Source: Escherichia phage nepoznato
Direction: 5' to 3' (one strand)
Sequence record: NC_052658.1
DNA length: 64,000 bases
The notes below the pieces were generated by a model. It searched no databases. It was not told the DNA's origin and was given only the letters and a program-made list of their open reading frames with translations. The position numbers and the translations under genes are program-made. This document shows, one piece after another, positions 1-32,093 of the stretch (position 1 is the first letter of the stretch; every line of letters begins with the position of its first letter).

Positions 1-225
1 CTCATGCCAACATAGCGACAAGGTGGGCCACTTGATTATAAATCACACAAACACTTATTTATCAATGGTTTGGCAACTTCATCATATGACGGAACATTGT
101 CAACTGATCCCGCTCATGACAAGCAGACTATTATTTATATGAGAATGATTATTATTTAAACGTTTATTAACATAAAAACTAAAATAAATCAAGATTATTC
201 TGATTTTATTTACGTTTAAGAGAAG

Positions 226-425
226 GTGCTCAACATCCTACCGGATCGCCGTTGGCAATCCTGCGGATATTTACGCCCCCATGATTAAGGTTTATCTCTT
301 TTCTTAGTGCTCAACATATCGCGTAGCGATAGTATTCGCCCCCGTGATATTTGCTCTTCTCTTAGTGCTCAACATTCCCGCCTGTGGCGGTAACATTTCG
401 CCCCCAAAATTATTGACTTTTATTC
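226..425. repeat. Three tandem direct repeats of about 60-70 bp, each with boxes GTGCTCAACAT and TTCGCCCCC flanking a variable short palindrome
   Basis: Copies start near 232, 312 and 364. Confidence 0.7.
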
Positions 426-779
426 TATTATGTGCATAGTGTGCAATGTATCGGAATGATGATAATCATCCTCCCATTGCCCCCATAATTATTGCCATGC
501 TAATTGTTTCCTTATGTAATTATCACAATGACTATTGTTATTGCGCTAATGTTATGATCTTGGTAATTACATATAATGCTAATAATAAGCCAGCGCAATA
601 AGTGTAAGCGTCATTACGCTTGCAATTATTGCAAGCTACGCAGTAACAAGAAATAACCATCACCGATGGTTATGATTGTTGGGGTGTAGTTGGCTTATTA
701 TTAGCTCGCTACGTGTCCGGCGTAGCGTGCTAATGATGAGTCTGTAAATGATTCATTGTGTAATGATTTCATTCAGGCA

Positions 780-1000
780 CTATTTTGCTAATAGTTATTA
801 TTTTAATGGTTTCGTTTGTTATTGTTCGTTAGTTGGTTGTTTTGTCGTGTTATCGTTATCTTGCTTAGTATTCATCATGGTTTGATTGTTTGTCGTTATC
901 AATCATCTTGCTATTATTCCTTTGATTATGATTAGTTTGCTTATTGTTTTATGTTGTTTGTTGGTTAGTTGTTGCGAACTATTATCAACATTATAATTAT
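780..1000. repeat. GT-rich low-complexity tract with strong strand compositional asymmetry
   Basis: Iterated GTT/TTG short motifs. Confidence 0.5.
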
Positions 1001-1249
1001 GCGCTTATATTGCATAGATAATCATGGGTAGATGATAATGGTTATCATTGCACTAGAAAGGAGGTAAAAGGGTGTTTTTGATGGTTTGTTGTTGGTTGTT
1101 GATCGATTTTAACCGCTCTAAATGGCTCTCTAACAGCCTGTAACCCTGGGAGGTATGGTTATTCGTTTGCTGGTTGATTAGCTCGATACCGCGATTTATT
1201 CAGTTTTGTTCTGTGTCGGTTTTTCATAGGCGGAAGCTATCAATATTGT

Positions 1250-1283
1250 TCGGGCAAAAATAAAGGGCGCTTAGTGCGCCCCT
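1250..1283 (-). terminator. Rho-independent terminator after leftward gene 1293-1661
   Basis: GGGCGC-loop-GCGCCC hairpin followed by T-run on minus strand. Confidence 0.6.
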
Positions 1284-1292
1284 TGTATAATC

Positions 1293-9438: not shown

Positions 9439-9442
9439 TCTT

Positions 9443-9471
9443 GACAAGCCCAGGGATCGGGCTTATACTGT
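9443..9471 (+). promoter_or_regulatory. TTGACA-N17-TATACT promoter whose spacer contains hairpin AAGCCC/GGGCTT; promoter versus weak terminator is ambiguous
   Basis: Direct reading. Confidence 0.4.
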
Positions 9472-9690
9472 TTTACATACAGAAGAGGAAGCGCCACCCC
9501 CACGGCGTAAAGGCGGGGCTAACATACCAGGGGCACTGGTTGGAAGGTTGATCGCCGGTAGGCTGGGCGCTATATATTTGTAAAGAAATGTAAAGATAAA
9601 ATAATCGCTTGCTTTCCTGGCTGGATCTGTTATTCTTATTACATGGCGAGGGGACACGGGAGCGCGAGACAAACACCGCCCCTGCGCGTC
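9472..9690 (+). ncRNA. Candidate structured non-coding RNA: GC-rich island with nested complementary segments and no plausible ORF
   Basis: Compositional outlier downstream of the promoter-like element. Confidence 0.25.
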
Positions 9691-9694
9691 ATTC

Positions 9695-9800
9695 TCTAAA
9701 TGAGAATGATTATCATTTACTTTATTAAATAAGAATCAATCTCATTTATAAACCTAAATGCGAATCATTATCATTTGCATTTCCACATGAGAACTCTTCT
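9695..9800. repeat. Four iterated palindromic sites of about 19 bp (AATGATTATCATT; ATGAGAA-CTC-TTCTCAT), Fur-box-like
   Basis: Direct reading; related motifs at 141-160, 455-475, 1014-1045. Confidence 0.5.
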
Positions 9801-9825
9801 CATTCCCATCTGCATAAATTTTTGT

Positions 9826-10030
9826 AAACTTTAAATTTTGCTTTTGTACTTTCATTTTTGTAAAAGCAAAAAAACTTTAAATACTGTGGGCGCGCAAAAT
9901 TTTTAAAATTTTCCTTGACTTTTGAGTTTTGTTTTGTATCTGACATTTTAAGATAATTTTCCTAAACTTTAAATTTTGGTTTTCAACTTTCACTTTTGTA
10001 AATTCTTAAAAAGTTTAAATAATTTGAGGG
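9826..10030. repeat. Two copies of a direct repeat of about 56 bp (AAACTTTAAATTTTG...TTTTGTAAA...TTTAAATA)
   Basis: Copies at about 9826-9885 and 9961-10018. Confidence 0.6.
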
Positions 10031-10162
10031 ATTTTTGAGATAATGGATAGTGGGAATTTGATATAACCTTTAATCTTATTAGTAGACCTTCAGGAACCCA
10101 CCTAGATCGAATCCTGGTGATGCAAACTGAAAAAGACAAGGGTTTGTATAGGACAAAATAAT

Positions 10163-10198
10163 AGGCTCTCTACGGTGCTGTAGGAGCCTTATTTCTGT
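10163..10198. terminator. Bidirectional hairpin terminator (AGGCTC...GAGCCT) with T-rich flanks on both strands
   Basis: Direct reading. Confidence 0.5.
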
Positions 10199-10244
10199 GC
10201 TACAAAGTGACACCTTTGTTCTAAAAATGAAAAAAGTTAAAATA

Positions 10245-30331: not shown

Positions 30332-30805
30332 ATGCTTAAAATGAAAACAGGTAATCTTATTGATGCCGCTAAAGCAGGTGAAGTAACTGTTATTGCTCAT
30401 TGTTGCAATTGTATGTGTAATATGGGGGCAGGAATTGCTCCGCAAATTAAACGAGCATTCCCTTATGCATATGCGGCGGATTTAGACACAATGGCTGGTG
30501 ATCAGAGTAAGTTAGGTTCTTTTAGTTTAGGGGTGCCAGACGAACAATCAGACCCTTTGGTATATAATCTATACGGGCAATACCGTTACGGATATAATGC
30601 TAAAGGTCGTCAGTTGGACTATGATGCCCTATACGATGCACTAATAGCTATGGCTAATGATTTGCTTCTCCGTGACCAAAAATGTAAGATCGGTTTACCT
30701 ATGATTGGAGCGGGACATGCCGGAGGTAATTGGGCTATCATCCAAGTGATGATTGAAGAAACTTTAGTAAAAACAGGTCACGATGTGACTATTTATAAAC
30801 TTTAA
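30332..30805 (+). CDS. Macro domain protein (ADP-ribose binding/hydrolase family)
   Basis: Gly-rich blocks IAHCCNCMCNMGAGIA and LPMIGAGHAGG. Confidence 0.55.
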   Translation: MLKMKTGNLIDAAKAGEVTVIAHCCNCMCNMGAGIAPQIKRAFPYAYAADLDTMAGDQSKLGSFSLGVPDEQSDPLVYNLYGQYRYGYNAKGRQLDYDALYDALIAMANDLLLRDQKCKIGLPMIGAGHAGGNWAIIQVMIEETLVKTGHDVTIYKL

Positions 30806-30817
30806 GAGGAGATTAGT

Positions 30818-31039
30818 ATGGGTGTTTTTGCAGGTATTGTTGCAGTGGTAAGCTTTTTTGTTATTGCTTTTATGCTTAGTTTGATTCCAGCTTGGTTACT
30901 GTTGCTGGCTTACAACTATGTTGCTGAAGTTATGGGTCATGCAGATATCACTGTCCCAGTAACCTTCTGGACCGTGGTTTGTGTTTCGTTTATTCTGGCT
31001 GTATTACGAGGAATCTTTTCCTCTCATTCAACAAAATAA
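30818..31039 (+). CDS. Small membrane protein (73 aa)
   Basis: Two hydrophobic helices. Confidence 0.55.
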   Translation: MGVFAGIVAVVSFFVIAFMLSLIPAWLLLLAYNYVAEVMGHADITVPVTFWTVVCVSFILAVLRGIFSSHSTK

Positions 31040-31100
31040 GTGTTGACATAGTTCTTAAAAAGAGTAAGATATATCACATGAAGCGGGGAATAGTTCCCCG
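31038..31100 (+). promoter_or_regulatory. Early-type promoter (TTGACA) plus conserved leader TATCACATGAAG and hairpin CGGGGAA-TAG-TTCCCCG, plus-strand copy
   Basis: Same architecture as the leftward early promoters. Confidence 0.55.
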
Positions 31101-31118
31101 CAAAGAGAGGAGAAAAGA

Positions 31119-32093
31119 ATGCAACTCGGTTTCCCAATTATTGATGTAGTTGTTTTAGTTGGTATTTTGGCATTGTCTATTGGTATCGATTTCTTTGGTC
31201 ATAAAGAGAATAAAGAAATTGGAATTAAATCTGCTTTGCTTTGGTCTATTTTTTGGATTGCTTTAGCTTTAGGATATTACGCATTCATTTGGGTAGAACA
31301 TGGTAAAGAGTTTGCCGCGCTTTTCCTAAGTGGCTATGTGTTGGAAAAGAGTCTTTCTGTAGATAACCTGATGGTGTTCATGGCAATTTTTGCAAGCTTT
31401 GGAATTAAGAGCACACATCTCCAACATAAGATTTTACTTTGGGGGATTGCAGGAGCCATTGTCTTCCGAGGTATTTTTGTTGCAGCAGGCACCGCTTTGT
31501 TTAACCTTCATTGGTCGGTACAAGTGTTGTTCGGTTTGATTGTAGCTTGGTCTGCCGTAGCTATCATCAAAGGTGGTGACGAAGAAGAGGATATTGATTA
31601 CTCTAAGCATTGGGCTGTTCGTTTAGTAGGTAAAGTTCTGCCTGTGCACAATGCACTGGATGGTGAAAAGTTCATTACCATTAAGAATGGTATTAAATAT
31701 GCAACTCCTGCTCTTCTTTGTGTGTTTGTTATTGAGCTTACAGATATTGTCTTCTCTTTTGATTCAGTTCCGGCTGTGATCGGTGTGACACAAGAACCTC
31801 TGCTGGTTTATTCTGCAATGCTGATGGCTGTTCTTGGTTTACGTGCGCTTTTCTTTGTGTTAAGTGTAGCTGTGAAATATCTGGTTCACTTAGAGAAAGC
31901 TGTTGCTGTGGTTCTGGTGTTTGTTGGTGTTAAACTTATGTATCACCCGTTCGGTGAAACACTTCATGCCAAGTGGTCATTCCTCCCGCATGATATTTCC
32001 CCTAACGTAAGTCTGATGATTGTTCTAGGCACATTAGCTCTTGGTGTTATTGCAAGCTTTATCTTCCCTGAAAAAGAAGAAGCTGCTGTTTAA
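31119..32093 (+). CDS. terC: TerC-family integral membrane protein
   Basis: EKSLSVDNLMVF and ELTDIVFSFDSVPA; multiple TM helices. Confidence 0.75.
   Translation: MQLGFPIIDVVVLVGILALSIGIDFFGHKENKEIGIKSALLWSIFWIALALGYYAFIWVEHGKEFAALFLSGYVLEKSLSVDNLMVFMAIFASFGIKSTHLQHKILLWGIAGAIVFRGIFVAAGTALFNLHWSVQVLFGLIVAWSAVAIIKGGDEEEDIDYSKHWAVRLVGKVLPVHNALDGEKFITIKNGIKYATPALLCVFVIELTDIVFSFDSVPAVIGVTQEPLLVYSAMLMAVLGLRALFFVLSVAVKYLVHLEKAVAVVLVFVGVKLMYHPFGETLHAKWSFLPHDISPNVSLMIVLGTLALGVIASFIFPEKEEAAV

What the first reader, a model, noticed from the sequence alone, without database searches (positions are those of the whole stretch)
1..1270. Long non-coding region with tandem repeats, GT-rich tract and palindromes
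No ORF of 60 aa or more over about 1.27 kb in an otherwise gene-dense genome. It contains three tandem repeat units with conserved boxes and variable palindromes (226-425), a strongly strand-asymmetric GT-rich tract (780-1000) and Fur-box-like palindromes. Candidate roles are replication origin, packaging or terminal-repeat boundary, or a small-RNA locus.
Basis: seen in the sequence. Interest (0 to 1): 0.5.

Follow-up and report, generated by a model that had tools for sequence, protein, structure and literature searches.

The report
Phage genome-end control region with structured element
This gene-free 1.27 kb is the end region of a phAPEC8-like coliphage genome: it holds the inner part of the short terminal repeat, the predicted DNA cutting site with a variable hairpin-repeat array, and a conserved folded ~150-nt element that is in no RNA catalogue.

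Summary
Window 1-1270 has no ORF of 60 aa or more, three box-plus-hairpin units, the most G+T-rich stretch of the 64 kb, and clustered Fur-box-like palindromes.

The window is a Phapecoctavirus genome (about 95% identical to many records). Position 1 matches base 100 of the 328/329-bp direct terminal repeat (DTR) of close relatives. The DTR's inner edge falls after base 230, inside the first GTGCTCAACAT box.

Both DTR edges carry the same core, GCT|NAAC, in ten phages of several clades. I read this as the packaging cut site.

The hairpin units just beyond it vary from 1 to 3 copies. Their stems differ in sequence but always pair.

Bases 578-727 form a five-helix structure: 53 pairs, 15 with compensatory changes, 99.9% of cells paired. 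Its 89 G-U pairs lie on the + strand only. It has no Rfam match.

The rest is a C-poor tract ending at a minus-strand terminator (1262-1284).

Best reading: a genome-terminus and packaging control region with an embedded, undescribed structured RNA or single-stranded DNA element. The functions of the units, the element and the GT tract are inferred, not shown. An origin role is not supported.

The parts
1..230 (.). Inner 230 bp of the direct terminal repeat (equals positions 100-329 of the repeat in Schickermooser and Mt1B1_P17). The first 99 bp lie outside the window.
   Evidence: The records carry exact 329-, 328-, 328- and 342-bp repeats at both ends (Schickermooser, Mt1B1_P17, WPEC1, BME3). 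Window 1-236 aligns to L001 100-335 at 95%. At least 11 records start or end at these boundaries. A 328-bp repeat is published.
140..154 (.). Fur 7-1-7-like box TGAGAATGATTATTA inside the repeat
   Evidence: The homologous box is a perfect TGATAATGATTATCA in BME3 (sequence).
217..236 (+). Right (inner) repeat boundary site: purine run TAAGAGAAG plus GTGCT|CAACAT. Predicted cut between 230 and 231.
   Evidence: The repeat in the records ends at ...GCT. The same GCT|NAAC core sits at the left boundary (...GTGCT|TAACGCGA) in 10 phages.
226..306 (+). Unit 1: box 226-236, compound hairpin 243-261, CGCCCCC 274-280
307..364 (+). Unit 2: box 307-317, hairpin ATCGC-GTA-GCGAT 318-330, CGCCCCC 337-343
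   Evidence: The hairpin is present as its exact reverse complement in Mt1B1, SF1-1 and WPEC1.
365..425 (+). Unit 3: box 365-375, hairpin CCGCC-TGT-GGCGG 378-390, CGCCCCC 399-405. This is the only unit type kept in one-unit relatives such as Schickermooser.
413..440 (+). Sigma-70-like site TTGACT-16-CATAGT; weak candidate promoter for rightward transcription
   Evidence: 9 of 12 matches; the number of sites in the region is not above shuffles. The -35 element is kept in Phapecoctavirus but not in the phiWec phages. Status: lead only.
426..577 (.). Variable spacer with hairpin-sized insertions and deletions between close relatives. Contains a weak Fur-like box (460-474) and GCTAAT motifs (499, 545).
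578..727 (+). Conserved structured element. Helices: P1 578-591/692-705; P2 595-610/617-632; P1b 634-641/684-691; P3 653-661/665-673; P4 707-714/720-727. An alternative long hairpin spans 692-742.
   Evidence: RNAalifold: 53 pairs, 15 with double compensatory changes. 99.9% of cells are paired against 92.1% in shuffles, and 0 of 500 shuffles reach the observed covariation score; slid controls pair 23-53%. There are 89 G-U cells on + that would be A-C on -. The single-sequence fold has z = -8.6. The covariance model gives one hit in the window at 180.9 bits. No Rfam family matches.
755..1000 (+). GT-rich, C-poor tract (CA-rich and G-poor on the - strand)
   Evidence: It is 90-91% identical to the phiWec phages, whose genome-wide aligned identity is about 80%. 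Homologous regions in other genera are C-poor (9-13% C) but not T-biased. No consensus structure. Not coding.
973..1047 (.). Two Fur-like boxes (973-987, 1033-1047) flanking the palindrome TATGC-N9-GCATA (998-1016). This island is conserved across genera.
1177..1260 (.). Island conserved across genera (ATTAGCTCGATACCGCGATTTATTCA...). It resembles the start of the repeat (AACGCGA(A)TTTT); Klebsiella-phage relatives have exact AACGCGATTT here.
1262..1284 (-). Intrinsic terminator ending the leftward gene cluster (gene 1293-1661 on the - strand)
   Evidence: 9-bp stem, 6 GC pairs, T-run. Annotated as a terminator in Schickermooser, phAPEC8 and Paula.

Best explanation
Window 1-1270 is the non-coding control region at one physical end of a Phapecoctavirus (phAPEC8-like, about 150 kb) genome.

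Shown by homology: bases 1-230 are the inner part of a roughly 329-bp direct terminal repeat (DTR), and the repeat ends inside the first GTGCTCAACAT box.

Inferred: virion DNA is cut out of replicative concatemers at two copies of one asymmetric site, purine run plus GTGCT|YAAC. One copy lies at each edge of the repeat, in the same orientation. The left edge reads GTGCT|TAACGCGA and the right edge reads GTGCT|CAACAT. The short repeat then ends up on both ends of each packaged genome, as in T7-type short-DTR phages.

The right-edge site is followed on the unique side by a module of GC hairpin, T-rich stretch and CGCCCCC. In this phage the whole module is triplicated. I take the extra units to be dispensable accessory or back-up copies of the termination site, because copy number varies from 1 to 3 among phages about 95% identical, and a two-unit record (WPEC1) ends its repeat exactly at the first box; the three-unit record (FKP3) ends its 317-bp repeat 13 nt before the first box.

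Downstream, 578-727 folds on the + strand into a conserved multi-helix element. It is most likely a rightward-transcribed non-coding RNA; less likely it acts as + strand single-stranded DNA. It has a possible second conformer (692-742).

The C-poor GT tract and the Fur-type boxes are further cis elements, probably protein-binding sites. On the minus strand the tract offers a G-poor landing zone for Rho behind the intrinsic terminator at 1262-1284. That terminator keeps convergent late transcription out of the terminus.
For: Identity and position:
- The region is about 95% identical to more than 60 Phapecoctavirus records.
- Exact terminal repeats in records: Schickermooser 329, Mt1B1_P17 328, WPEC1 328, BME3 342 bp.
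- At least 11 records begin or end exactly at these boundaries.
- Window 1 equals repeat base 100, and window 230 equals the repeat end. BME3's boundary at 342 aligns to window ~230.

Shared cut motif:
- GCT|NAAC sits at both boundaries in 10 phages of 3-4 clades, giving repeat lengths of 329-344 bp.

Units:
- The 11-mer box occurs only here.
- Each unit has a hairpin whose sequence differs but whose pairing is kept. There are at least 9 hairpin types across relatives.
- Copy number is 1-3.
- WPEC1 has two units and its repeat ends at the first box.

Structured element: (statistics are given under parts).

Non-coding status.

Terminator.

Conservation above genome average: 91% against the phiWec phages over 567-1286, compared with 80% genome-wide aligned identity. 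Segments 578-737 and 932-1286 still align at 69-82% to Justusliebigvirus and Klebsiella-phage relatives.
Against: - Nothing here is measured on this phage. The window holds only one genome end, so the repeat and its boundary are transferred by homology.
- How most records fixed their ends is not stated.
- One PhageTerm-based record (FKP3) puts both ends 13-14 nt inside the motif and carries the 317-bp repeat three times. This looks technical, but it is a discrepancy.
- The shared core is short (6-8 bases), and the ten phages are related, so they are not independent trials.
- Sites in direct orientation do not by themselves explain how the repeat is duplicated. The T7-type model needs nicks on opposite strands.
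- E. coli Justusliebigvirus phages keep the box but replace the hairpin module with CAACAAATAG repeats, so the hairpin is not universal.
- No promoter or terminator for the structured element could be established. Promoter-like sites are not above shuffle expectation.
- The thermodynamic optimum of the window's own sequence uses the alternative hairpin rather than P1.
- A more distant relative (L026) has a gene-free gap of similar size (~1.2 kb) without the boxes or the element.
Confidence: 0.6

Rival explanations
1. Replication origin. The C-poor, AT/GT-rich tract would be an unwinding element. The GCTAAT and Fur-like boxes would be initiator sites. The structured element would be a primer RNA or a single-strand priming signal.
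For: - The tract is AT-rich and C-poor in all genera.
- GCTAAT occurs 7 times in 499-1182 against about 0.4 expected from the window-wide density.
- The structure is strand-specific.
- The phage has a T7 gp4-like primase-helicase.
- Non-coding conservation is high.
Against: - No consensus DnaA box, only two one-off variants.
- No helical phasing.
- A more classical origin-like block lies at 9696-10026: four boxes at exact 29-bp spacing next to AT-rich 72-nt repeats.
- The region abuts the repeat boundary, which already explains much of it.
- Cumulative GC skew follows gene orientation only.
Confidence: 0.15
2. Stand-alone non-coding RNA locus unrelated to packaging. Bases 578-727, perhaps with the GU-rich tail, would be a regulatory or anti-defence RNA made early from a promoter near 413. 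The boxes and units would be its transcriptional control or processing sites.
For: - Covariation with + strand-only G-U pairs.
- Two mutually exclusive conformers.
- No Rfam family.
- No E. coli genomic counterpart.
- A TTGACT-16-CATAGT site upstream.
Against: - No convincing conserved promoter or terminator.
- The units sit exactly on the repeat boundary in every clade, which a pure RNA-gene reading does not explain.
- No expression data were found.

This rival is compatible with the best explanation for 578-727 and differs from it mainly on function.
Confidence: 0.2
3. T5-like DNA-entry control region. The repeats, palindromes and host-factor boxes at the repeat/unique junction would hold or pause the DNA during ejection, as proposed for the T5 injection stop signal.
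For: T5 has a 1.2-1.66 kb untranslated block of direct repeats, inverted repeats, palindromes and host-factor (DnaA) boxes. It straddles the terminal repeat/unique boundary and is conserved more than the neighbouring genes (Davison, bioRxiv 10.1101/866236). Here there is a comparable block with Fur-type boxes and one TTATCAACA, which Davison lists as a DnaA* variant.
Against: - The repeat here is 329 bp and carries no pre-early genes, whereas T5's is about 10 kb.
- The early-looking small genes lie at the other end of the genome. By the T7 logic this end would enter last.
- No two-step transfer is known for these phages.
- There is no sequence similarity to T5.
Confidence: 0.04
4. Decayed or mis-called coding sequence, or neutral spacer: no function beyond the terminator.
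For: Some records annotate 5-8 tiny 'hypothetical proteins' here. A 36-aa TTG ORF (886-996) is open in 8 of 8 close relatives.
Against: - The ORFs lack conserved starts or frames across relatives, and the differences seen change amino acids.
- Non-coding conservation exceeds the genome average.
- Structured covariation is present.
- Motifs are strongly enriched.
Confidence: 0.01

Closest known systems
T7/T3-type short direct terminal repeat and concatemer-junction packaging signals
   Same: - A short exact repeat (hundreds of bp) at both genome ends, with fixed ends.
- Non-coding repeat arrays and a GC hairpin next to the repeat. This point about T7 is from my own knowledge of the T7 sequence (Dunn & Studier 1983) and of hairpin intermediates in T7 concatemer processing (Chung, Nardone & Hinkle 1990); it was not re-read here.
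- Early-looking genes at the opposite end.
- A gp4-like primase-helicase in the window.
   Different: - This is a 150-kb myovirus transcribed by host-type promoters.
- The same asymmetric core (GCT|NAAC) marks both repeat edges.
- The module next to the cut is a variable-copy box-hairpin-CGCCCCC unit.
- No T7 RNA polymerase pause site is involved.
- There is no sequence similarity.
Phage lambda cos (cosQ-cosN-cosB with R1-R3 repeats and the IHF site)
   Same: A multipartite packaging site: a cleavage point flanked by repeated short elements and by a site for a host DNA-binding protein (own knowledge of lambda cos). Here the cleavage core is flanked by repeated units and by Fur-type boxes.
   Different: - Lambda makes 12-nt cohesive ends, not a 329-bp repeat.
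- The lambda R sites are conserved-sequence protein sites, whereas here the unit interiors conserve pairing and not sequence.
- Binding of any protein is untested.
Phage T5 untranslated 'Repeat Region 3' / injection stop signal
   Same: A non-coding block of more than 1 kb straddling the terminal repeat/unique boundary. [quoted passage not shown]
   Different: - The T5 repeat is about 10 kb and gene-bearing.
- Its boxes are DnaA-type, not Fur-type.
- No evidence exists for two-step entry here, and the sequences are unrelated.
E. coli Fur box (19-bp GATAATGATAATCATTATC; 7-1-7 reading TGATAAT-N-ATTATCA)
   Same: - Window boxes match 12-13 of 14 specified positions of the 7-1-7 form.
- BME3 has a perfect TGATAATGATTATCA.
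- A distant relative has GATAATGATAATCATT.
   Different: - The phage consensus leans to TGAGAAT-N-ATTCTCA; FKP3 has a perfect palindrome of that form.
- The same boxes form a 29-bp-spaced array at 9.7 kb, so a phage-encoded binder is as likely as Fur.
- The consensus itself is from my own knowledge.
phi29 packaging RNA (pRNA)
   Same: An RNA-sized (~150 nt) element encoded next to a genome end. It has a long helix closing the 5' and 3' parts and a three-way junction bearing two hairpin arms. The pRNA features are from my own knowledge.
   Different: - No sequence or Rfam similarity.
- The loop sequences are not conserved, so no loop-loop ring is evident.
- phi29 packages protein-primed unit genomes, whereas this phage cuts concatemers.
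- This is resemblance only.

Membership tests
Short direct-terminal-repeat genome end (T7-type packaging class) | Identical sequence of a few hundred bp at both physical ends of virion DNA | tested here: met
   Met in relatives' records: 329, 328, 328 and 342 bp exact, and published. For this phage it holds only by homology (window 1-230 equals repeat 100-329); the other genome end is outside the window.
Short direct-terminal-repeat genome end (T7-type packaging class) | Read-start pile-ups at two fixed positions and about twofold coverage over the repeat | not testable with these tools
   No reads are available. BME3 and FKP3 were called short-DTR by PhageTerm in their papers.
Short direct-terminal-repeat genome end (T7-type packaging class) | Site-specific cleavage signal at the repeat boundaries | tested here: inconclusive
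   A shared GCT|NAAC core sits at both edges in 10 phages, but cleavage has not been demonstrated. FKP3's ends are 13-14 nt off.
Tandem repeat array | Head-to-tail copies at least ~70% alike | tested here: not met
   TRF reports nothing at 226-425. Only the 11-nt and 7-nt boxes and the 22-nt flank repeat; the interiors differ.
Intrinsic (Rho-independent) terminators, for the hairpin units | GC stem-loop directly followed by a T-run | tested here: not met
   The scanner finds no + strand terminator in 1-2000. The tails are TAACATTT, AGTATT and ATATTTA.
Any described RNA family (Rfam 15) | Covariance-model match at or near the gathering score | tested here: not met
   Only two chance-level hits (E = 0.09 and 0.32, far below gathering), and neither is on the + strand of 578-727.
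Structured non-coding RNA (generic) | Conserved base pairing with compensatory changes, specific to one strand | tested here: met
   15 of 53 pairs show double changes, 99.9% of cells are paired, and 0 of 500 shuffles reach the observed score. There are 89 G-U cells on + against 89 A-C on -.
Structured non-coding RNA (generic) | Evidence of transcription (promoter, terminator, RNA-seq) | tested here: inconclusive
   Only weak sigma-70-like sites, not above shuffles. No terminator after P4. No transcriptome found.
Fur box | Match to the 7-1-7 or 19-bp consensus | tested here: met
   Four boxes at up to 2 mismatches in 1-1270; 10 in the window against 2.2 expected.
Fur box | Binding by Fe-Fur and iron-dependent regulation | not testable with these tools
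   Needs EMSA, ChIP or a fur mutant host.
Replication origin of the oriC/lambda type | Clustered initiator boxes (DnaA boxes or iterons) next to an AT-rich unwinding element | tested here: inconclusive
   No consensus DnaA box. A GCTAAT cluster and an AT-rich C-poor tract are present. A better iteron/AT block lies at 9.7-10.0 kb.
Type III toxin-antitoxin antitoxin-like RNA repeats (pseudo-ToxI of phage phiTE; own knowledge) | Near-identical ~36-nt tandem repeats | tested here: not met
   The units are 58-81 nt with dissimilar interiors.

The most novel reading that the evidence does not exclude
The 150-nt element at 578-727 is a new class of phage RNA that works in cis or trans at the genome terminus. 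One form of this would be a conformational switch (P1 versus the 692-742 hairpin) that couples transcription to concatemer cutting or repeat duplication. Another would be a pRNA-like packaging cofactor. The box-hairpin units would then be its partner sites, giving a packaging system that uses structured nucleic acid, which is not known for concatemer-cutting myoviruses.
Probability: 0.1. Interest if true: 0.85.

Novelty: new variant of a known kind. Interest (0 to 1): 0.55.

Why it matters
Phapecoctavirus and Justusliebigvirus phages are widely isolated and used in phage-therapy cocktails, yet their genome ends are annotated inconsistently. Many records are opened at arbitrary points, and some list 5-8 fictitious mini-genes in this region.

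A defined boundary motif (GTGCT|TAACGCG ... GTGCT|CAACAT) gives a simple rule for orienting and closing these genomes. It also gives a concrete, mutable candidate for the packaging site.

The variable-copy hairpin units may cause strain-level length differences and assembly errors at the ends.

The structured element is conserved more strongly than many neighbouring genes in at least three clades and is absent from Rfam. It is a clean target for finding out what a structured RNA or single-stranded DNA element does next to a phage terminus.

The Fur-type boxes raise a testable link between host iron status, or a phage-encoded regulator, and events at the terminus.

Tried and rejected
- **Tandem Repeats Finder.** It found nothing at 226-425.
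- **Rfam.** No credible match.
- **Promoter and terminator scans.** Scans of the window and of anhysbys gave promoter-like counts no higher than shuffles, so I assign no promoter. Aligning the sequence upstream of P1 showed no -10/-35 element kept across clades.
- **IMG/VR scan for GCTCAACA-N(8-38)-CGCCCCC.** The pattern was too loose: the hits lay on unrelated-looking contigs of 5-85 kb (no ~150-kb contig) and I did not inspect them further.
- **IMG/VR scan for the element's invariant 21-mer.** It found only 4 contigs, all close relatives.
- **Neighbour-gene search.** It brought in three more distant contigs. None carries the element, and the two I searched for the boxes (L026, L028) lack them.
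- **E. coli genomes.** No similarity to the element, so it is not a host mimic or a prophage copy.
- **DnaA boxes.** None at consensus.
- **AA/TT helical periodicity (DNA curvature).** None.
- **Coding potential of the six small ORFs.** Rejected.
- **Consensus structure in 728-1290 on either strand.** Weak, and no helix is convincing.
- **The alternative hairpin 692-742.** It is kept for 7-11 bp but covaries less than P1, and arall's compensatory change favours P1.
- **Integron attC, lambda nut (boxA + boxB) and CRISPR-like readings of the units.** I considered these from memory and dropped them. There is no GTTRRRY partner site. Three different hairpins sit in one phage. The variable parts are palindromes, not spacers.
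- **Literature search for transcriptomes of this subfamily.** Unproductive. Two searches failed on term length.
- **Terminase.** It is not within the 64 kb among the ORFs of 380 aa or more that I scanned, so terminase typing was not done.
Full report
**What the window is.** Bases 1-1400 are 93-97% identical to more than 60 records of Phapecoctavirus (phAPEC8-like myoviruses, about 150 kb, subfamily Stephanstirmvirinae). In every relative examined the homologous stretch carries no credible gene annotation. It is flanked on both sides by genes on the minus strand of the window orientation. The gene-free gap is 1.5-2.1 kb long. The window shows only its right-hand 1.27 kb. The first real gene is 1293-1661 on the minus strand, preceded by an intrinsic terminator at 1284-1262.

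**Checking the observation.**
- The longest ORF is 51 aa.
- GTGCTCAACAT occurs exactly three times, at 226, 307 and 365, and nowhere else in 64 kb. Each copy is followed by a GC hairpin and CGCCCCC. TRF misses the array because the interiors differ.
- The G+T fraction peaks at 0.736 in the 220 nt starting at 755. This is the highest value in the window, about 5 sd above the mean.
- The 'Fur-box-like palindromes' match the 7-1-7 reading of the Fur box (TGATAAT-N-ATTATCA; consensus from my own knowledge). There are ten sites at up to 2 mismatches in the window against 2.2 +/- 1.6 in shuffles. Four are in 1-1270 and four more form an array at 9701-9802.

**The terminal repeat.**
- Korf et al. reported a 328-bp terminal repeat for Schickermooser (PMC6563267).
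- BME3 has a 342-bp repeat by PhageTerm (PMC12210895).
- A 2025 paper states that Stephanstirmvirinae genomes end in direct terminal repeats (PMC12695924).
- In the deposited records I found exact start-equals-end repeats of 329 bp (Schickermooser), 328 bp (Mt1B1_P17, WPEC1) and 342 bp (BME3).
- At least eleven records start or stop exactly at these positions.
- Window 1-236 aligns with bases 100-335 of the Schickermooser end. The window therefore begins 99 bases inside the repeat, and the repeat ends after window base 230, in the middle of the first box (GTGCT|CAACAT).
- BME3, from another genus, aligns its boundary (342) to the same window position.

**A shared core at both edges.**
- In ten phages where both edges could be read, the left edge is ...RRG(T/C)GCT|(T/G)AACGCGA and the right edge is ...AAGARRKKGCT|CAACA. 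Both are in the same orientation and both follow a purine-rich run. The ten phages are window-type Phapecoctavirus, the phiWec group, E. coli Justusliebigvirus and Klebsiella-phage relatives. The implied repeat lengths are 329-344 bp.
- Beyond the cut, both sides tend to carry a T-run followed by a C/G-rich box. Examples are TAACGCGATTTTCGGGCGCCCCC on the left and hairpin-ATTTCGCCCCC on the right in the Klebsiella and Phapecoctavirus types.
- I read GCT|NAAC as the core of the cleavage site used at both edges. This is inference.
- The caveats are that the core is short, that the phages are related, and that one PhageTerm-derived record (FKP3) has ends 13-14 nt inside the motif on both sides. 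That record also holds three copies of its 317-bp 'repeat', which looks like a technical offset and a rearranged record.

**The three units.**
- A unit is box, then GC hairpin, then a T-rich stretch, then CGCCCCC.
- Copy number is 3 in the window and FKP3; 2 in anhysbys, SF1-1, WPEC1 and KP2025; and 1 in Schickermooser, Mt1B1_P17, phiWec186/190 and phi1_175008.
- The hairpins differ in sequence but always pair. Examples are ATCGC-GTA-GCGAT, CCGCC-TGT-GGCGG, CCGCC-ATA-GGCGG, GCCCAC-TTC-GTGGGC, CCACGC-CTCA-GCGTGG and AGCGC-TGATC-GCGCT.
- One hairpin is present as its exact reverse complement in other strains, which is what inversion of a palindrome gives.
- Units 2 and 3 are preceded by CTCTT(C/T)TCTTA, the inverse of the TAAGAGAAG that precedes unit 1 (read).
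- In WPEC1 (two units) the repeat ends at the first box. In FKP3 (three units) it ends 13 nt before the first box. So the extra units lie in unique DNA.
- E. coli Justusliebigvirus keeps the box but follows it with 1-4 copies of CAACAAATAG instead.
- The units do not qualify as intrinsic terminators. Folded as DNA, the array is only mildly more stable than shuffles (z = -2.0).
- My reading is that one module belongs to the right-edge site and that further copies are dispensable duplicates or back-up sites. They may arise by slippage or template switching at the cut. Confidence about 0.3.

**The structured element (578-727).**
- This stretch is the best-conserved part across genera: 75-82% to Justusliebigvirus and Klebsiella relatives.
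- An alignment of 15, then 18, sequences gives a consensus of 53 pairs in five helices. P1 is a long-range 14-bp stem.
- 15 pairs show compensatory double changes, and there are essentially no broken pairs.
- On the named structure, 99.9% of cells pair against 92.1% in column shuffles. The covariation score is 0.246 against 0.100 (0 of 500 shuffles reach it). Sliding the partners by 1-3 columns drops pairing to 23-53%.
- 89 cells are G-U on the + strand and none is A-C. On the - strand these would all be mismatches (947 of 948 paired against 858 of 948). The structure therefore belongs to the + strand, as RNA read left to right or, less likely, as + strand single-stranded DNA.
- The window sequence folds with z = -8.6. 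Its optimum replaces P1 by a long hairpin, 692-742. That alternative is kept for 7-11 bp in relatives but covaries less than P1, so a two-state element is possible.
- No Rfam family matches and no E. coli genome has anything similar.
- A covariance model (R1) finds exactly one copy in the window (180.9 bits) and one in each relative, but none in three more distant contigs.
- I could not define a promoter or terminator for it, and I found no transcriptome for these phages.

**The rest of the region.**
- Bases 426-577 are variable, with hairpin-sized indels.
- From 575 to 1286 the sequence is 90-91% identical to the phiWec phages, whose genome-wide aligned identity to Phapecoctavirus is about 80%. 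The GT tract is therefore under constraint.
- It is not coding. Starts and frames are not kept, a 17-nt insertion occurs in phiWec190, and the differences change amino acids.
- It has no consensus fold and no helical phasing.
- Across genera the shared property is C-poverty on the + strand (9-13% C); the T bias is lineage-specific.
- On the minus strand this gives a G-poor, C/A-rich RNA directly behind the intrinsic terminator. That is the composition expected of a Rho loading zone (own knowledge; inference). Composition alone does not explain 90% identity.
- Islands conserved across genera are the Fur-like boxes around a TATGC...GCATA palindrome (973-1047) and ATTAGCTCGATACCGCGATTTATTCA (1177-1200). 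The latter resembles the start of the repeat.
- GCTAAT occurs seven times in 499-1182 against about 0.4 expected.

**How it most likely works.**
- Shown by homology: this is the repeat/unique junction of a short-DTR genome.
- Inferred: concatemers are cut at GCT|NAAC sites at the two repeat edges.
- The early-looking small genes sit just inside the other end. By analogy with T7 (own knowledge), the end described here would be packaged first and enter the cell last.
- The box-hairpin module marks the right-edge (termination) site.
- The Fur-type boxes, in the repeat and downstream, are sites for a host or phage DNA-binding protein.
- The terminator, and possibly Rho, insulates the terminus from convergent transcription.
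- The structured element is an RNA or single-stranded DNA signal of unknown role.
- Sites in direct orientation do not explain how the repeat is duplicated, and that step remains open.

**Comparison with known systems.** The region works most like the T7-type concatemer junction. It also resembles the multipartite lambda cos site and, in anatomy, the T5 untranslated repeat region at the terminal-repeat edge. It is not a sequence relative of any of them. It fails the tests for a TRF tandem array, for intrinsic terminators, for any Rfam family and for DnaA-box origins. It passes the sequence test for Fur boxes and the covariation test for a structured element.

**Verdict.**
- The terminal-repeat-boundary reading is supported by homology.
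- The origin reading is unsupported, and a better origin-like block exists at 9.7-10.0 kb.
- The repeat itself is already published.
- In the papers I read, I found no description of the shared boundary core, the variable hairpin units or the covarying element.
- Interest is moderate (0.55): a specialist would not be surprised by a packaging region here, but the uncatalogued structured element and the boundary motif are concrete and testable.

Noticed in passing
window 9440-10240: A second ~800-bp non-coding region. It has four 29-bp tandem units, each carrying the same Fur-7-1-7-like box (9701, 9730, 9759, 9788). These are followed by AT-rich 72-nt direct repeats (9817-9888 and 9955-10026, 82% alike) and preceded by a strong TTGACA-N17-TATACT site near 9441. 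Iterons next to AT-rich repeats look like a replication origin or a major operator region.
   Followed up: partly
window ~30800-31900: A second strongly G+T-rich stretch (0.66-0.70 in 220-nt windows; AT skew -0.20 over 31001-32000), the next most asymmetric after 755-975.
   Followed up: no
window 1262-1290; L001 1224-1810: Many relatives (Schickermooser, ESCO5, Mt1B1_P17, the phiWec phages) carry an extra 420-bp gene between the non-coding region and the 1293-1661 gene. It is flanked by two copies of the terminator hairpin. The window and anhysbys lack it, so it is a moron-like cassette gained or lost by recombination between terminator copies.
   Followed up: partly
L008 1-817 and L017 (Klebsiella phage FKP3, PP895363): The record contains three copies of a 317-bp 'terminal repeat' (1-317, 501-817 and the record end). 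Its edges lie 13-14 nt inside the GCT|NAAC cores on both sides. This is probably a PhageTerm or rearrangement artefact rather than biology.
   Followed up: partly
window 318-330; L002 ~335-347; L016; L019: The unit-2 hairpin ATCGC-GTA-GCGAT is the exact reverse complement (ATCGC-TAC-GCGAT) in Mt1B1_P17, SF1-1 and WPEC1. The palindrome has flipped in place, as expected from hairpin or cruciform-mediated template switching.
   Followed up: no
L026 4620-5800 (IMG/VR contig of 151,943 bp): A more distant relative (neighbour protein 80% identical) has a ~1.2-kb gene-free gap at the same place. It has no sequence similarity to the window's region, no boxes and no structured element. It does have many Fur-type boxes, including GATAATGATAATCATT. 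The boxes are the most widely kept feature of this region.
   Followed up: partly
search results: Records named Campylobacter phage B15/A150/A110a, Acinetobacter phage vB_AbaM_ABPW7, Pseudomonas phage PsgM04F and 'Dompiswa phage TSP7_1' match this coliphage region closely: about 90-95% for B15, ABPW7, PsgM04F and TSP7_1, and about 71% (the Justusliebigvirus level) for A150/A110a. The host labels are doubtful; contamination or mislabelling is likely.
   Followed up: no
window 1-64000: ARAGORN finds no tRNA gene in the 64 kb, although these phages are reported to carry 10-13. The tRNA cluster must lie in the other part of the genome.
   Followed up: no
window 1072-1143: A good Shine-Dalgarno-like AAGGAGG (1059-1065) precedes a 23-codon GTG ORF. 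The start and frame are lost in the phiWec phages and the stop is lost in several others, so it is probably not a gene. The AGGAGG itself is partly conserved.
   Followed up: partly
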